Position numbers and translations under genes: made by a program | NCBI RefSeq assembly: GCF_009914755.1 | Contig: NC_060933.1 | Direction: 5' to 3' (one strand) | From: the human T2T-CHM13v2.0 reference genome, Homo sapiens | Length of the DNA: 64,000 bases | Notes under the pieces: model-generated | The model's database searches: none | Told to the model about the DNA's origin: nothing | The model's input: the letters and a program-made list of their open reading frames with translations, nothing else | Shown: positions 10,536 through 19,500 of the stretch, one piece after another | Numbering within the stretch: position 1 is the stretch's first letter | How the letters are laid out: every line of letters starts with the position of its first letter

Positions 10536-10750
10536 AGGACTTCTTTATTAAGTGGTTTTTCATTAAAGGCAGTGATGTTAAATGTGCTCTTGCAAAGGGA
10601 GTTTCTCCTAAGGTTGCTGTTACTAGGGAACTGTTGCTATGGGCACCATTGCTAAGAAATGTTGCTAAAGACAATGTTTCTAAGGATATTGCTAAGAGCT
10701 TTGTTGCCAAGGGTGTTGTTGCTAAGAAGATTGTCGCCAAGGGAATTGTA

Positions 10751-10826
10751 TTAGGTTGGTACAAAGGTGATTGCGGTTTTTGCCACTGAAATGGCAAAAA
10801 TCGCAATTACCTTTGCATCAACCTAA
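10751..10826. mobile_element. MADE1 (Hsmar1-derived MITE), palindromic
   Basis: TTAGGTTGGTACAAAGGTGATTGCGGTTTTTGCCA...TGGCAAAAATCGCAATTACCTTTGCATCAACCTAA; TA TSD at 10749-50 and 10827-28. Confidence 0.95.
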
Positions 10827-11585
10827 TAATTAAGGACATTGTTGCTGCATATAGTGTTGCAATGGATTTTGCTCCTAGGGCCTCTTAGATAAGGGTGTTG
10901 TTGCTAAGAAATGTTCCCCACACATACTGCCACCAAGGACATAGTTGTTACTGCCACTGTAACTAAATGCATGGCTGATATGGCCATTATTGCTCTGGTC
11001 ACAATTACAGTAGCCACTCTTGCAGAAGGAGCAATTCCTATGGCCACCGTTGCTAAAGACATTGTTATTAAGTATGTTGCTATTAATGGAACTTTTTCAA
11101 AGAGTGCGGTTGCTAAGCACATTTTGCCAAGCTTTTGCTAATGATATTGTTGAGAGGGCCCTTATGCTAAAGACATCGTTCTTAAAGGTGTTAGTATTAA
11201 GGGTGGTGTTGCAAGAAAGTTTTTGCTAAGGATGCATTTGCTAAATCAAGGTTGGATGGTCACTACTGTCACGAAAACTGTTGCTAAAGACAACATTGCT
11301 AGGGGCAAAGGTGCTAAGGAAATTTTTGCTATGAAATGTGTTGATAAGATTGTTGATGTTAGGCAGTTTTTAGAAAGGCACTTTCTTTGTTAGTATTAGT
11401 GTGTTTTGTGTTTTCTTAGTATGTTTGTTAGTGTGTTTTGGCGTGCTTTGCTAAGAAATCTGCACTAAGTTGCTTTTGCTGAGGGTGTGGCTGCTATGGC
11501 CACTGTTGGCAAAGTCATTATTGAGAAGGCATTATTTCTAAGTTTATTATTGCTAAGGAAATTGTTGCCTTTTTGTTAAGAGAAT

Positions 11586-11822
11586 TGTATTAGTTTCCTA
11601 GGGCTGTCACATCAAAGTACCAAAAACGAGGTGGCTTAAAACAAAAGAAATTTATCTTACAGTTCTGGAGCTTAGAAGTCCAAATCAGGTGGTGGTAGGG
11701 TTGCTTCCTTCTGAGCACTCTGAATCTTTTCCGTGCGTTTTTCCTTGCTTCTGATGGTTCCTGGAAATCTTTCACATTTCTTGGCATCACTCCAGTCTCT
11801 GCCTTCATATTCACATGCCCTT
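11586..11822 (-). mobile_element. MLT1 (MLT1B/C-like) MaLR LTR fragment
   Basis: TGTATTAGTTTCCTAGGGCTG...GGTGGCTTAAAACAA.AGAAATTTAT..TACAGTTCTGGAG...AGAAGTCCAAATCAGG. Confidence 0.85.
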
Positions 11823-12206
11823 ACAAAACTTACTCTCTGTTGCTAGGAGCGTGTTTGCTAAGGAAATGCTTGCTAAAGATATTTTTAAGGGCATTTCTCT
11901 TAAAGGCATTAATGTTCAAGATATTGTCACAGATAAGTTTTGGTACCAATGCAATTACCAAGAGTGTTGATGTTATGGCCCTGTTGCAAAGGAAACTTGT
12001 TGTTAAGGGTATTGCAAGACTCTTGTGTTAATATCGTTGTAAAGAAAGTTGTTGTTAAGGATGCTGTTCCTAACTGCATTTGTTTCTATGTTGCAAAATG
12101 AGATATGTTAAAAGCATTGTTGCAAAAGATGTTCTTGCTAGGAGCATTGCTGCTGATGGAAAGTTTGCAAAGGTAATTGTTGATGGAAGCAATTTTGAAG
12201 GTCCTC

Positions 12207-15392: not shown

Positions 15393-15690
15393 GGCCGGGC
15401 ACGCTGGCTCACGCCTGTAATCCCAGCACTTTGGAAGGCCGAGGCCGGTGGATCACTTGAGGTCAGGAGTTTGAGACCAGCCTGACCAACCAACATGGTG
15501 AAACCCCATCTCTACTAAAATTACAAAATCAGCTGGGCTTAGTGGTGCACACCTGTAATCCCAGCTTCTTGGGAGGCTGAGGCAGGAGAATGGCTTAAAC
15601 CTGGGAGGCGGAGGTTACAGTGAGCCGAGATCATGCCATTGCACTCCAGCCTGGGCAACAAGAAGGAAACTCTGTCAAAAAGAAAATAAA
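15393..15690 (+). mobile_element. AluS
   Basis: TSD AAGGTGTGCTGTT / AAAGTGTGCCGTT. Confidence 0.93.
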
Positions 15691-16229
15691 GTGTGCCGTT
15701 ATTAGAATCATTTTGGCTAAGGGGTATTGGTTTGAATGGTGGTATTGCTAAGGGGACTGATGCTAAAGGCACTCTTAGTAAGTGCAGTTGTCGCTAAGGT
15801 TGATGTTCCAAAAGGCATTGATGTTAAGGACATTGTTGCTAAGCCTGTTTTTTAAAGTGTGCTGCTGTTATGGGTATTGTTGTTAAGGGTGTTGTAAGAG
15901 AAATCATTGCTGAGTACCACTGCTGCTGAGAGCATTGCCACTAAGATCTAATATTGCCAAGGACAGTGTTGCTAAGGCCGTTGAACTTAAATGCATTTTG
16001 GTAAAGGCATTGTTCCTAAAGAGATTCTGGCTAAGGACACTGTTACAAGGGGCATCTTTTATAAGGGCATTGTTGCTAAAGTTGATTTTACTAAAGGCCA
16101 TTTTAGCTAAAGGCACTGTTGCTAAGTACACTGTTGTCAAGGATGTTGTTGCTAAGAGTGCTGTTGTTAAGAGCATTATATTCTAAAGGATCCGTTGCTA
16201 AGGGAATTGATGATAATTGCATTGTTTCT

Positions 16230-16550
16230 TTTTTCTTTTCTTTTCTTATTTTTTTTTTTTTTTTTTTTAGATGGATTCTCCCTCTGTTGCCCAGGCTGGA
16301 GTGTGGTGGCATGATCTCAGCTCACTGCAACCTCCGCCTCCCGGGTTCAAGTGATTCTCCTGCCTCAGCCTCCCGAGTAGCTGGGATTACAGGCGTGCAC
16401 TACCATGCCCAGCTAATTCTTGTATTTTTGGTAGAGATGGGGTTTCATCATGTTGGCCAGGCTGGTCTCAAACTCCTGACCTCAAGTGATCCACCCACCT
16501 CAGCCTCCCAATGTGCTTGGGATTACAGGCATGAGCCACCTTGCCCGGCC
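16230..16550 (-). mobile_element. AluS (Sz-like)
   Basis: TSD TTGCATTGTTTCT; CCTCAAGTGATCC. Confidence 0.93.
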
Positions 16551-19500
16551 TGTAGTTGCATTGTTTCTAAGGGCCTTTGTTAAGGCACTATGCTAATGTT
16601 TTTGCTAAAAGTCATTGTTACAAAAGCTGTGGTTACTAATGATGTTGCTTCCATGGAACACGTGCCTAAGGATGATATTTCAATTGGCATCGATAGTAAG
16701 GTCACTGTTGCTAAGGAAGTTATTTCTAAGTGCATTGTTCCTGGAGCCATTGTAGTTATGGGTGATGTTCATAAGAGAACTGTTGAAGGTCATTGTGGCT
16801 AAAGGCATTATTACTATTGCTAGTGTTTCTCATGATGCTGTTTCTACCAGCACTGATCCTAAATCTCGTGTTGCTAAGAGTATTGTTACTGAGGGTATTA
16901 TTGCTAAGTATATTGTTGCTTAGGGTACTATTGCTTAGAATGTTTTTGTATATTATTGTTAAGGACACTGTTTCTCAGATCATTGTTCCTAGGGTGTTAA
17001 TGTTGGCAAGGGACATTTTTGCTGAAGGCATTGTGACTAAAGGCATTGTTGTTACAGGTATTTTCTTCAAAGGGCATTGTTGGGAAGGGGACATTTCTAG
17101 AGTCACTCTTGCTAAAGACTGTTGCTAAGACCATTTTACTAAGGTCAATGCTAAGAGCATTATTACCAAGGCTTTATTTTTATGGCTCACCGTTGGTTGC
17201 TAAAGTCATTGCTTCTAAGGGCCAAGAGGGCTGTTGTCAAGAATGCTGGTCTTAGGGGATTTTTGCTAATAGTAATATTGTTAGGACATTGTTGCAAAGA
17301 GTGTGGTTGCTAAGGGCCATTGTTTATAAGGTAAACAATGGTAAACTCTTGGTAAGGCAAGTTTGGATAAGAGCACTGTTGCTAAGGGCACTGGTTATAG
17401 GGGTGATGCTCATGATTTTTTTACTAAGGACATTATTAAGAATGTCATTTCTAAGGTCGGTTGTTTACCCCTTTCTTGCTAATGGTACTGATGTTAAGAG
17501 TGTTGATTCTATGAGTATTACCATTCGGAGCATTGTCTCCAAGAGCCATTCTTGCTAAGTTCATTGATATTATGTATTTTGTAGCTAGGACATTGCTGTA
17601 AAGTGTGCTGTTGCCAACAACACTGTTGCTGATGTCATTATTGCTAAGGAGTTGATACTAAAAGCATTTTTACTAAGGTGCCATTGGTAAGAGTGCTGTT
17701 GTTAATGCCACTATAAAGGACATTTTTGTAAGGGCATTGTTGCTAATTGCTTTATTTCTAATTTTGTTATTGCTAAGGGCCATGGTTTTTGAAGGTATTA
17801 TTTCTAAGGGTGTTTTTGCTAAGATACACTAACAGGCCATGGTTTGACCATTTCCAAAGTACCATGGCAATTTATAGAGGTAAATGGACATACCATTGTT
17901 CCTAAGGGCATTGTTGCTATGGACATTGATTTTAAAGACATTGTTGCCAATGGCATTGTTGCAATTGGCATAATTCCCACTATTTCTACAGGCAATTATG
18001 CTAAGGTTGTTGTTGCTTAGAGATTTGTCAGTAAGGTGCACCATTGCTAATGATGTTGCTGCTAAGGACATTGTTGTTAGGGACCATTGTTGTTATGTTA
18101 TGAGTGTTGTCTCTAGGGTCATTTTTCCTAAGGGCCATTTTTGTTAAGGGTCTTGATGCTAAAGGCCATTTTTTTAAACGACATTTTGGTAAAGGTATTC
18201 ATGTCAAGCTATTTGTTGCTAAGGTCATTGTTGTTTGGGGTGGTTGTTAAGGTCTATGATTGCTAATGTAAGATATTGCTTCTAGGAGTGTTGATGTCAG
18301 TCAAAGGTGTTGCTAAGAACAACTGTGGCAAATAGTGTTATAGCTGAGGGCATTTTTCTAATGTTACTGTTGCTTAGATTATGTTGCCAAGAGTCTTTTG
18401 GCTAAAAGGGTTAATATTAACAATGTTGTCTTAAAGCATTATTCCTGATGGTGTCTATGCTAAGGGTATTGTTGCTATGGGATTTGTTGCTAAGGGCCAT
18501 TATTAATAAGAGTCATTGTTGTGATAGGCATATTTTTAAAAGTGTTGGTGCCAAGGGCAATTGTTCTTAAGGATGTTTTTGCCAAGGGCATTAGTGGTAA
18601 AAAATTGTTGCTAAGGTCATTTTTTTCTAAGTGGGTTGGTCCTAATGTATCCCACACCATGAAATCACTACCTCACTACTCTTCACCTCTCCCACTCCAT
18701 ACAACATATTTCCTTGTATCAGACACCTGCTGACATCACCAGTATAGGATCTTATTAGAACAAATGAGGCAAGTAGAGCAAAGTGGGCATCTCTCAGGGA
18801 ACAAGAGTGTCCAGTGCAAAGTATCAGCCCATTCCAACCTTAGGACAGGTGCCAGGCTGATTAGGGGCCTCAGGTTTGAGCTAGTGACCCTGACCCTTTA
18901 AGCTCTGAGAACTTAAAGCTGGCTGAGCTCCAACCCTGAATGTTTTGTCCTATGAGTCATTATCTGTGAGCTATTTTTAAAAATATTTTGGACTTCATCT
19001 ACGTTTTTCCCCTAATGTGTTTCAATTTTGTGGGGACTCTAGTGGAAACAGAGGAAGTCATTGATTGTTCTTAAATCTTAAATGCATCTTTCCAACCTGT
19101 CAATGCACATAACTTAATCAGGTCTATGTTCATGCATAAGATAGTTCCATACATGAAGCATCTCACAGTTCAATATGCTCTCTATATACAATATTTTTCC
19201 ACTTAAAATATCCACTAGGTTGAGTGAGGACATCGATAGCCAGATTTTCATATATATTTGAAAAAAAGAGAGGTAAGAAAACTCAAAAATATCTGTAAAA
19301 GAAACAAATACATTTGGAGCACGTGCCTTACTACCAATCAAGGTTTTAGAAAGCCAGACTCATCAAGACAGTGGTATAGGCACAGTGAGAGACAAAGTAG
19401 CTCACAGGAAAAGACCAGAGGCCCAGAATCATACTTAGCATTTATATCCACATGGTGTCTTACAGAGGGGACACACACATCAGTGAGGAGAGAAAATGTA

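What the first reader, a model, noticed from the sequence alone, without database searches (positions are those of the whole stretch)
10536..18645. Unrecognised ~8 kb degenerate 15-bp tandem array (GTTGCTAAGGGCATT)n
Seen: after subtracting ~2.4 kb of inserted transposons, ~5.7 kb (roughly 380 units, my estimate) keeps a 15-bp phase in one orientation. The + strand is T/G-rich and C-poor. Neighbouring units are highly diverged, yet the TTGCTAAG core is much better kept than the rest of the unit. It matches no human satellite or TE I recognise (alpha, beta, gamma, HSAT, SATR, CER, SVA VNTR). Inference: an old, no-longer-homogenising array with position-specific conservation suggests constraint on a short motif present in hundreds of copies. 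This is the best candidate in the window for an undescribed functional element.
Basis: partly seen in the sequence, partly recalled or inferred. Interest (0 to 1): 0.88.

Follow-up and report, generated by a model that had tools for sequence, protein, structure and literature searches.

The report
Old decayed 15-bp minisatellite relic
This is a real but very old, worn-down tandem array of a 15-base unit that exists at one locus copied four times on chromosome 9, and its pattern of wear looks like ordinary neutral mutation rather than protection of a functional motif.

Summary
The array is real. Window 10536-18647 holds about 387 units of GTTGCTAAGGGCATT in one orientation (5.8 kb), interrupted by about 2.3 kb of transposon inserts.

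The claim of motif constraint is not supported:
- **Retention follows base type.** A/T positions keep 79-88% and G/C positions 52-66%, inside and outside TTGCTAAG alike. Positions 12-13 carry the footprint of a decayed CpG: CA 168, TG 63, TA 48, CG 3 against 39.9 expected.
- **A neutral simulation fits.** Using the substitution spectrum measured in the flanks, it reproduces 13 of 15 positions. The two misfits, G11 and T14, are less conserved than neutral, not more.
- **Recent change is neutral.** Among the four chr9 segmental-duplication copies, singleton substitutions match trinucleotide-context expectation: array 71 vs 72.0, core 32 vs 33.9.
- **No excess of intact cores**.

Units are 56% identical at every distance, with no higher-order repeat. 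No other array was found in the genome. There is no coding signal.

Verdict: a single-locus, ancient, neutrally decaying minisatellite. Whether Dfam lists it could not be checked.

The parts
10536..18647 (+). Whole degenerate 15-bp tandem array (consensus GTTGCTAAGGGCATT), including its transposon inserts
   Evidence: Cyclic alignment bounds, 5810 matched bases, about 387 units. Lag-15 autocorrelation 0.405. No array elsewhere in the window.
10536..10748 (+). Array segment 1
   Evidence: Period-15 signal and cyclic alignment
10749..10828 (.). 80-bp inverted-repeat MITE insert (MADE1-like; the name is recalled)
   Evidence: 37-nt arms, 89% complementary. Full-length match to Rfam mir-548 on both strands, 78.4 and 73.8 bits, below the gathering score of 90. 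Read directly, removing it restores a 15-base unit.
10829..11605 (+). Array segment 2
11606..11837 (.). Fragment of an old dispersed interspersed repeat inserted in the array (MaLR/MLT1-like; the name is recalled and untested)
   Evidence: Long-insert state of the cyclic alignment. The genome search gave 1834 first-look candidates. Of 40 scored, 36 were non-paralogous copies at 70-86% identity, the long ones at 70-77%.
11838..12205 (+). Array segment 3
12206..12513 (-). Alu insert (poly-T first, so reverse orientation)
   Evidence: Long-insert state. Sequence read. Naming it Alu is by recall.
12514..12699 (+). Array segment 4
12700..13080 (.). Old dispersed interspersed repeat insert (MaLR-LTR-like; the name is recalled)
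   Evidence: The genome search gave 6566 first-look candidates. Of 40 scored, 36 were non-paralogous copies at 74-78% identity.
13081..13374 (+). Array segment 5
13375..14043 (-). Alu insert that is itself split by a ~370-bp LTR-like element (about 13528-13895): a nested insertion
   Evidence: Sequence read. Names are recalled.
14044..15392 (+). Array segment 6
15393..15690 (+). Alu insert with a target-site duplication made of array sequence
   Evidence: GTGTGCTGTT at 15383 and GTGTGCCGTT at 15691. The alignment's long-insert state spans 15410-15688.
15691..16229 (+). Array segment 7. At about 15993 the window and the 41.19-Mb copy lack 659 bp (44 units) that the 39.42-Mb and 78.71-Mb copies retain.
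16230..16552 (-). Alu insert with a 16-bp target-site duplication of array sequence
   Evidence: TAATTGCATTGTTTCT at 16214 and TAGTTGCATTGTTTCT at 16553
16553..18647 (+). Array segment 8, the longest uninterrupted stretch
11661..12029 (-). Exon of the predicted lncRNA LOC112268036, made of the old repeat insert plus array units
   Evidence: Hub annotation compared with the coordinates. No evidence gathered here on its expression.

Best explanation
This is the relic of one ancient minisatellite. A 15-bp unit, most likely GTTGCTAAGGGCRTT with a CpG at positions 12-13 in a large share of units, was amplified once at a single locus. Slippage or unequal exchange took it to about 430 units (about 6.4 kb).

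Homogenisation then stopped. Every unit has since decayed independently under the ordinary mutation spectrum: G/C to A/T bias, fast CpG loss and small indels. The total is about 0.3 substitutions per site.

Transposons inserted into the decaying array over time. A few million years ago the whole locus was copied as part of a large chr9 pericentromeric segmental duplication, giving four copies at 39.42, 41.19, 43.78 and 78.71 Mb. The window's lineage lost 44 units through a deletion between two similar units.

The array has no detectable sequence-specific function. The apparent conserved core is what neutral decay leaves when five of the eight core bases are A/T and the adjacent patch held a CpG.

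Shown here: the array anatomy, single-locus status, lack of homogenisation, CpG footprint, neutral fit and neutral recent rates. Inferred: the amplification mechanism, the absolute age and the absence of function.
For: **Anatomy**
-.

**Single locus**
- Two DNA searches of the whole assembly with 1341 and 2093 bases of array returned only the four chr9 copies. The first also returned four short cross-matches within those arrays.
- The double-core pattern TTGCTAAG-N7-TTGCTAAG has 18 genomic matches. Four are the chr9 copies. None of the 14 other loci holds a period-15 array: best cyclic score 62.5 against 1520-1652 for the four array loci. The top scorer, L013, is an unrelated CATCAT repeat.
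- The right flank, 18648-19600, is unique to the four copies.

**No homogenisation**
- Unit identity is 0.563 at distance 1 against a null of 0.5575 +/- 0.0045, and is flat out to distance 200.

**Decay pattern**
- A/T positions retain 0.79-0.88 and G/C positions 0.52-0.66.
- Positions 12-13 show CA 168, TG 63, TA 48, CG 3 of 374, with 39.9 CG expected. Fisher p = 2e-28. Mutual information is 0.25 bit against <=0.07 for every other pair.

**Local neutral spectrum from the flanks**
- A/T sites 0.0085, non-CpG G/C sites 0.0165, CpG C>T 0.087.
- A simulation with that spectrum, processed by the same aligner, fits 13 of 15 positions within |z| <= 2.2 at T = 29 with half the units carrying a CpG.

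**Recent evolution among the four copies**
- All variable columns: 106 observed against 108.3 expected.
- Singletons only: array 71 vs 72.0, core 32 vs 33.9, rest 39 vs 38.1, phases chi2 11.5, p 0.65.
- By base class, array and flanks do not differ: A/T 1.24% vs 1.13%, p 0.59; G/C 2.23% vs 1.97%, p 0.48.

**Intact cores**
- 38 of 318 against 31.7 expected.

**Age ordering**
- The inserts belong to dispersed families whose best copies are only 70-78% identical to the inserted copy.
- Two Alu inserts carry target-site duplications made of array sequence.

**44-unit deletion**
-.
Against: - **Raw counts by phase were heterogeneous.** Before context correction, recent substitutions gave chi2 25.3, p 0.03, and non-CpG chi2 36.1, p 0.001.
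- **A/T sites in the core looked slower.** They ran at 0.82% against 1.84% for A/T sites in the rest, p 0.008. That contrast traces to the 35 of 106 variable columns with a 2:2 split, whose tie was resolved to the window's base. It disappears with singletons.
- **A post hoc group remains low.** T3, A7, A8 and T15 have 13 vs 26.6 expected, or 7 vs 16.0 with singletons, p 0.02.
- **Power is limited.** With about 34 expected core substitutions, only a reduction of roughly half would be detected reliably. Weak constraint is not excluded.
- **Two positions misfit the neutral model.** G11 and T14 do so by z -4.4 and -9.4, in the direction of excess variability, and this is unexplained.
- **CA outnumbers TG 168 to 63.** Symmetric CpG decay alone does not predict this. 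It requires that many units already carried CA when they were amplified.
- **Untested.** Orthologues in other species, population data and chromatin data could not be examined.
Confidence: 0.85

Rival explanations
1. The array is a functional platform of several hundred short binding sites, kept by weak purifying selection. Candidate sites are TTGCTAAG or GTTGCT, or the CATTGTT that spans unit junctions. The binder would be a DNA-binding protein such as a KRAB zinc-finger, RFX-type or SOX-type factor.
For: - Mean retention is higher in TTGCTAAG (about 0.76) than in the rest (about 0.65).
- T3, A7, A8 and T15 have fewer recent substitutions than expected: 13 vs 26.6, or 7 vs 16.0 with singletons, p 0.02, post hoc.
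- Motifs are strongly strand-specific: TTGCTAAG 40 on + and 0 on -; CATTGTT 29 on + and 2 on -.
- The factor-motif resemblances are recalled, not tested.
Against: - The core as a whole is at neutral expectation, 32 vs 33.9.
- No position exceeds the neutral simulation by more than z = 2.0.
- G4, C5 and G9 in the core decay like G positions outside it.
- Only 40 exact cores remain among about 390 units, as many as independent decay predicts.
- Overall array rates equal flank rates.
- 44 units were lost in two of the four copies.
- Strand specificity of motifs is automatic in a one-orientation array.
Confidence: 0.05
2. The array is the wreck of a coding exon that encoded a pentapeptide repeat, (VAKGI)n on the + strand or (NALSN)n on the - strand, in a gene lost long ago.
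For: - The period is a multiple of three.
- Autocorrelation is raised at lags 3, 6, 9 and 12 (0.29-0.30 against about 0.24).
- Two of the three + frames of the consensus are stop-free (direct reading).
- Minus-strand translations hit Pfam Pentapeptide_4 weakly: E 0.014 and 0.031, 15.8 and 14.8 bits.
Against: - The longest stop-free frame overlapping the array is 158 aa, and it runs through an Alu.
- Unit-length variants show no preference for multiples of three: 14 bp 48, 16 bp 40, 13 bp 19, 12 bp 18, 17 bp 10, 18 bp 4.
- The Pfam hits are far below the curated cut-off of 38 bits, and 4 of the 7 translated pieces hit nothing.
- The lag-3 signal follows from the unit's own ATT-GTT-GCT run.
Confidence: 0.03
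3. The array is a copy of a catalogued satellite, or the internal VNTR of a known transposon family that I cannot recognise without Dfam or Repbase.
For:
[quoted passage not shown] The list is in supplements I could not open (passages seen).
Against: - Only one locus, in four duplication copies, exists in the complete assembly.
- The right flank is not a dispersed repeat.
- Full-text searches for the unit sequence found only unrelated hits, none describing this repeat: 15 papers and 3.
Confidence: 0.07

Closest known systems
Decayed ('old') tandem repeats as labelled by tantan or ULTRA
   Same: A once-regular repeat whose pattern has been blurred by substitutions and indels, and which TRF-style thresholds mostly miss. 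The ULTRA paper describes exactly this class (passages seen). Here TRF at score >=50 recovers about 495 of 5841 array bases.
   Different: It is unusually long (about 390-430 units) for such a strongly decayed short-unit array. It is also present in four copies through segmental duplication.
Classical human minisatellites (10-100-bp units, single locus)
   Same: Unit length of 15 bp, single-locus origin, head-to-tail in one orientation, and length change by unit-register deletion (the 659-bp, 44-unit difference).
   Different: Active minisatellites have similar neighbouring units and high turnover. Here units are 56% identical at all distances, with no sign of homogenisation.
Interstitial satellite arrays newly annotated in T2T-CHM13, such as WaluSat (Hoyt et al. 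preprint, passages seen)
   Same: Locus-specific arrays outside the classical satellite families, spread by segmental duplication.
   Different: WaluSat has a 64-bp unit and expanded recently to thousands of similar copies on acrocentric arms. This array did not expand after duplication and is deeply diverged.
Classical satellites (alpha, beta, gamma, HSat1-3, SATR, CER)
   Same: Tandem organisation near a centromere.
   Different: These are multi-locus and high-copy with homogenised or higher-order structure. None of that was found here.

Membership tests
Tandem repeat / minisatellite array | Head-to-tail periodicity at a fixed unit length, well above chance | tested here: met
   Lag-15 match 0.405 against 0.278-0.289 in control stretches. 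Cyclic alignment score 4213 over 10536-18647.
Tandem repeat / minisatellite array | All units in one orientation with a recoverable common consensus | tested here: met
   Forward median score 255.5 against reverse 24. The consensus GTTGCTAAGGGCATT is the majority base at all 15 positions.
Catalogued human satellite family (Dfam/Repbase) | Significant match to a library consensus | not testable with these tools
   No Dfam or Repbase library is available. Rfam at gathering threshold found nothing in 9000-20000. Full-text searches for the unit found no description.
Catalogued human satellite family (Dfam/Repbase) | Many arrays or copies at unlinked loci | tested here: not met
   Only four segmental-duplication copies on chr9. 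The 14 other double-core pattern hits hold no array.
Catalogued human satellite family (Dfam/Repbase) | Homogenisation: neighbouring units more alike, or a higher-order repeat | tested here: not met
   Identity 0.55-0.57 at every unit distance, null 0.5575 +/- 0.0045. No period-2 recurrence at variable positions.
Motif array under purifying selection | Fewer recent substitutions in the motif than at context-matched neutral sites | tested here: not met
   Core 32 vs 33.9 expected with singletons, 47 vs 53.2 with all columns. The power suffices only for roughly a halving.
Motif array under purifying selection | Long-term retention above neutral expectation at motif positions | tested here: not met
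   In the neutral simulation with the local spectrum, the maximum positive z is 2.0 (A7). The outliers are negative (G11, T14).
Motif array under purifying selection | Excess of fully intact motifs (a protected subset of units) | tested here: not met
   38 of 318 gap-free cores intact against 31.7 expected. Distribution chi2 10.1, p 0.12.
Motif array under purifying selection | Protein occupancy or a reporter effect that depends on the motif | not testable with these tools
   No chromatin or binding data available.
Relic of a coding pentapeptide-repeat exon | Open frame, or indels in multiples of three, or a family match above cut-off | tested here: not met
   Longest frame 158 aa, running through an Alu. 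Unit lengths 12/13/14/16/17/18 bp = 18/19/48/40/10/4. Pentapeptide_4 at 15.8 bits against a cut-off of 38.
VNTR inside a dispersed transposon (SVA-like) | Flanks belong to a dispersed repeat family that carries the same units elsewhere | tested here: not met
   The right flank is unique to the four copies. The left edge abuts younger inserts, so the original left flank is unknown.

The most novel reading that the evidence does not exclude
A pre-primate, single-locus array of about 400 short sites is still weakly protected at a few positions. T3, A7, A8 and T15 show about half the expected recent substitutions. Such an array could act as a low-affinity sink or nucleation platform for a sequence-specific DNA-binding protein, now present in four copies beside the chr9 centromere.
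Probability: 0.04. Interest if true: 0.55.

Novelty: new member of a known kind. Interest (0 to 1): 0.12.

Why it matters
It matters little biologically. The result removes the window's "best candidate for an undescribed functional element".

It shows how base composition and one decayed CpG can mimic a conserved core in an old repeat. It also documents a long, deeply decayed short-unit array that threshold-based repeat maskers would mostly miss. Such sequence can generate false homology or false "constraint" signals. Here it offers a convenient internal neutral yardstick for the chr9 pericentromeric duplications.

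Tried and rejected
**Coding origin.** Rejected on stop-to-stop frames, a Pfam scan of 7 translated pieces (only sub-threshold HC2, Flu_PB2_1st, Pentapeptide_4 and LRR_1 hits) and the unit-length spectrum.

**Higher-order repeat or local homogenisation.** Rejected. TRF's single period-30 row (16871-16941, 2.4 copies) is local only.

**Other arrays in the genome.**
- The 23-place pattern with 1 mismatch got no answer from the machine.
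- The exact 23-place pattern worked, and its 14 non-chr9 loci were scanned and rejected.
- Sensitivity for equally decayed arrays is limited. The array itself holds only one exact double core per copy, and the DNA search skips simple repeats by its own statement.

**Other array pieces in the window.** None. The weak period-15 blips at 5469-5690, 9130-9262, 46128-46293, 53280-53392 and 54281-54395 did not score as this unit.

**TE-borne VNTR.** The right flank is unique.

**Rfam.** Nothing at gathering threshold. A sub-threshold mir-548 match identifies the 80-bp insert only.

**The core-vs-rest contrast at A/T sites (p 0.008).** Rejected as an artefact of tie handling in 2:2 columns.

**Target-site duplications.** The automatic search is confounded by the array's own repetition. 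Only the two Alu cases at 15393-15690 and 16230-16552 are taken as clear.

**Sources that could not be opened.**
- The journal version of the T2T repeat paper was not held under the id I tried, and a title search listed only papers that cite it.
- Its supplementary tables of new repeats could not be seen.

Full report
**1. The observation**

The stretch is a genuine tandem array. Self-matching of 10536-18645 peaks at lag 15 (0.405) and its multiples (0.358, 0.323, 0.311). Most other lags give 0.24-0.30, and three control stretches of the window give 0.278-0.289 at lag 15. A sliding lag-15 profile switches on at about 10520 and off at about 18646, with gaps where transposons sit.

A cyclic (wrap-around) alignment to GTTGCTAAGGGCATT used uniform match and mismatch scores plus a long-insert state. 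It places the array at 10536-18647, with 5810 matched bases (387 unit equivalents), 109 inserted and 208 deleted bases. Six long inserts total 2193 bp.

A seventh insert is an 80-bp inverted-repeat element at 10749-10828. It matches Rfam mir-548 over its full length on both strands, at 78.4 and 73.8 bits against a gathering score of 90. By recall, mir-548 precursors derive from MADE1 elements.

The array runs in one orientation only, and there is no further piece anywhere in the 64-kb window. Array bases are T 0.365, A 0.258, G 0.246 and C 0.132. TRF at score >=50 sees only about 495 bp of the array.

**2. Where else it occurs**

The window's assembly could be searched. Array pieces of 1341 and 2093 bases found only four places, all on chr9:
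- the window itself at 43.78 Mb;
- 41.19 Mb, minus strand;
- 39.42 Mb, plus strand;
- 78.71 Mb, minus strand.

The copies are 97-100% identical. The first search also returned four short internal cross-matches.

The exact pattern TTGCTAAG-N7-TTGCTAAG has 18 genomic matches, against 0 for the reversed control. Four are the chr9 copies. The 14 other loci were scanned with the cyclic aligner and none holds an array: best score 62.5 against 1520-1652 for the four array loci. The top scorer among them is an unrelated CATCAT microsatellite.

The unique sequence to the right of the array (18648-19600) also exists only in the four copies. So the array is one locus carried along by a large segmental duplication, not a dispersed satellite or transposon family.

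Ten kilobases on each side align in all four copies at 0.25-1.4% divergence. The array span itself differs by 0.74-1.53% between copies.

The 39.42-Mb and 78.71-Mb copies carry 659 bp (44 units) more array at window position ~15993. The two junction units are nearly identical, so the window's lineage probably lost them in a unit-register deletion. The original array therefore had about 430 units.

**3. How the units have decayed**

Retention of the consensus base by position:

| Position | 1 | 2 | 3 | 4 | 5 | 6 | 7 | 8 | 9 | 10 | 11 | 12 | 13 | 14 | 15 |
|---|---|---|---|---|---|---|---|---|---|---|---|---|---|---|---|
| Base | G | T | T | G | C | T | A | A | G | G | G | C | A | T | T |
| Retention | .63 | .79 | .88 | .64 | .66 | .81 | .84 | .81 | .65 | .65 | .53 | .52 | .69 | .65 | .87 |

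The contrast is between A/T and G/C positions, not between a core and the rest. The three G/C positions inside TTGCTAAG decay like G1 and G10 outside it. T15 outside is kept as well as T3.

Positions 12 and 13 are tightly coupled. The counts are CA 168, TG 63, TA 48 and CG 3 of 374, against 39.9 CG expected under independence. Fisher p is 2e-28, and mutual information is 0.25 bit against at most 0.07 for any other pair. This is the footprint of a CpG that has deaminated to TG or CA.

Units are 56% identical to one another at every distance from 1 to 200 units. The shuffled-order null is 0.5575 +/- 0.0045, and there is no alternation at variable positions. All units therefore descend from one burst and have decayed independently since.

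**4. Is the pattern more than neutral decay?**

I measured the local substitution spectrum from polarised singletons in the 20 kb of flanks of the four copies. It gave A/T sites 0.0085, non-CpG G/C sites 0.0165 and CpG C>T 0.087. I then simulated 390-unit arrays decaying under it with indels, and passed them through the same aligner. This controls for alignment bias.

With a decay time of 29 spectrum units and half the units starting with a CpG at 12-13, 13 of 15 positions fall within |z| <= 2.2. The two exceptions, G11 (z -4.4) and T14 (z -9.4), are less conserved than neutral. The largest positive deviation is z = +2.0 at A7.

By my arithmetic, that decay time amounts to about 0.32-0.35 non-CpG substitutions per site.

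Fully intact TTGCTAAG cores number 38 of 318 gap-free units against 31.7 expected from independent decay. The whole distribution of matches per unit fits that expectation, with chi2 p 0.12 for the core and 0.74 for the whole unit. Forty exact cores remain in all.

**5. Recent evolution among the four copies (a direct test of present constraint)**

Raw counts by phase looked heterogeneous: chi2 25.3, p 0.03, and non-CpG p 0.001. A/T sites in the core appeared slower than A/T sites in the rest, 0.82% against 1.84%, p 0.008.

By base class, however, the array as a whole evolves like its flanks. A/T sites run at 1.24% against 1.13% (p 0.59) and G/C sites at 2.23% against 1.97% (p 0.48).

I then took trinucleotide-context rates from the flanks and embedded transposons as the neutral reference (19,934 sites, 417 substitutions). 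The results were:

| Set | Observed | Expected | p |
|---|---|---|---|
| Array | 106 | 108.3 | 0.88 |
| Core | 47 | 53.2 | 0.44 |
| Rest | 59 | 55.0 | 0.63 |

Heterogeneity over the 15 phases is not significant, p 0.18.

The A/T contrast traced to 35 of the 106 variable columns that split 2:2 and were assigned the window's base. Restricting both array and reference to unambiguous singletons gives:

| Set | Observed | Expected |
|---|---|---|
| Array | 71 | 72.0 |
| Core | 32 | 33.9 |
| Rest | 39 | 38.1 |

Heterogeneity over phases is chi2 11.5, p 0.65.

One residual remains. T3, A7, A8 and T15 together have 13 vs 26.6 expected, or 7 vs 16.0 with singletons (p 0.02).

The power suffices to exclude roughly a halving of the core rate. 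It does not exclude weak constraint.

**6. Age**

Transposons entered an existing array:
- Two Alus carry target-site duplications made of array sequence.
- Removing the 80-bp element restores a 15-base unit (direct reading).
- One Alu is itself split by a later LTR-like element.
- The inserts at 11606-11837 and 12700-13080 belong to dispersed families with at least 1834 and 6566 first-look candidates. The best 36 non-paralogous copies scored for each are only 70-86% and 74-78% identical to the inserted copy.

Those two inserts are therefore old themselves. By my estimate they carry about 0.15-0.18 substitutions per site, roughly half the decay of the array.

By recall, such values are in the range of mammal-wide repeats (MLT1, MIR, L2). 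I therefore infer an origin before or around the eutherian radiation. A never-perfectly-homogeneous array would be younger than the decay figure suggests. The family names (MADE1, MaLR/MLT1, THE1-like, Alu) are recalled, not tested.

**7. Other readings**

Coding relic: rejected. No frame exceeds 158 aa, and that one runs through an Alu. Unit-length variants do not favour multiples of three. Pfam gives only sub-threshold noise.

Transposon VNTR or catalogued satellite: unlikely, given single-locus status. No Dfam or Repbase library was available, however. The T2T repeat preprint states that 13 interstitial satellite arrays and 62 new entries were added to Dfam, without listing them in the text I could read. 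Its supplements were closed, and the journal version was not held.

Full-text searches for the unit sequence found only unrelated hits, none describing this repeat. Decayed tandem repeats as a class are well described (ULTRA paper, passages).

**8. Verdict**

The array is a real, precisely described, single-locus ancient minisatellite, duplicated four times on chr9. It is decaying at neutral rates.

The 'conserved core' is a composition and CpG effect. It counts as a new, apparently unnamed member of a known kind, and its interest is low.

Three things remain unexplained:
- the excess variability of G11 and T14;
- the CA-over-TG asymmetry;
- the post hoc low recent rate at four A/T positions.

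Noticed in passing
window ~15993 (alignment columns 6407-7066); L010 and L011: The 39.42-Mb and 78.71-Mb copies hold 659 bp (44 units) more array than the window and the 41.19-Mb copy. The two junction units are nearly identical, so this is a unit-register deletion or unequal exchange after duplication.
   Followed up: yes
window ~14819: A 21-bp indel separates the window and 41.19-Mb copies from the 39.42-Mb and 78.71-Mb copies inside the array.
   Followed up: partly
window 536-10535, 10536-18647 and 18646-28500 against the three paralogues: The closest pair of duplication copies changes along the locus. In the left flank it is 41.19/39.42 Mb at 0.64%, with the window the outlier at about 1.4%. 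In the array and right flank it is window/41.19 Mb at 0.74% and 0.25%. This mosaic suggests gene conversion or stepwise duplication.
   Followed up: no
window ~23327: The 39.42-Mb and 78.71-Mb copies carry about 2.5 kb that the window and the 41.19-Mb copy lack in the right flank. Its content was not examined.
   Followed up: no
window 13375-14043: A nested insertion: an Alu in reverse orientation is split by a ~370-bp LTR-like element at about 13528-13895 (sequence read; names recalled).
   Followed up: partly
window 9297-10535: The left edge of the array abuts an Alu. Before that lie LTR-like sequence and an L1 3'-end fragment (identities recalled). The original left flank of the array is therefore unknown.
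   Followed up: no
array positions 11 and 14 of the unit: G11 and T14 are more variable than neutral decay predicts (z -4.4 and -9.4), and their states are unlinked to each other (MI <=0.06 bit). G11 also has 16 vs 8.0 expected recent substitutions.
   Followed up: partly
unit junctions throughout 10536-18647: The junction of consecutive units reads CATTGTT, which I recall as a SOX-type consensus. There are 29 exact copies on the + strand of the array, 2 on the - strand, and 7 on each strand in the rest of the window. No evidence of binding or constraint.
   Followed up: no
window 11661-12029 (-): The second exon of the predicted lncRNA LOC112268036 consists of an old repeat insert plus array units. 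It looks like opportunistic exonisation of repeat sequence.
   Followed up: no
L013 1498-1534 (G000:C2, about 10.34 Mb): An unrelated perfect 2.5-copy tandem duplication of a different 15-mer that happens to contain the reverse of the core. It lies beside a CATCAT microsatellite.
   Followed up: yes
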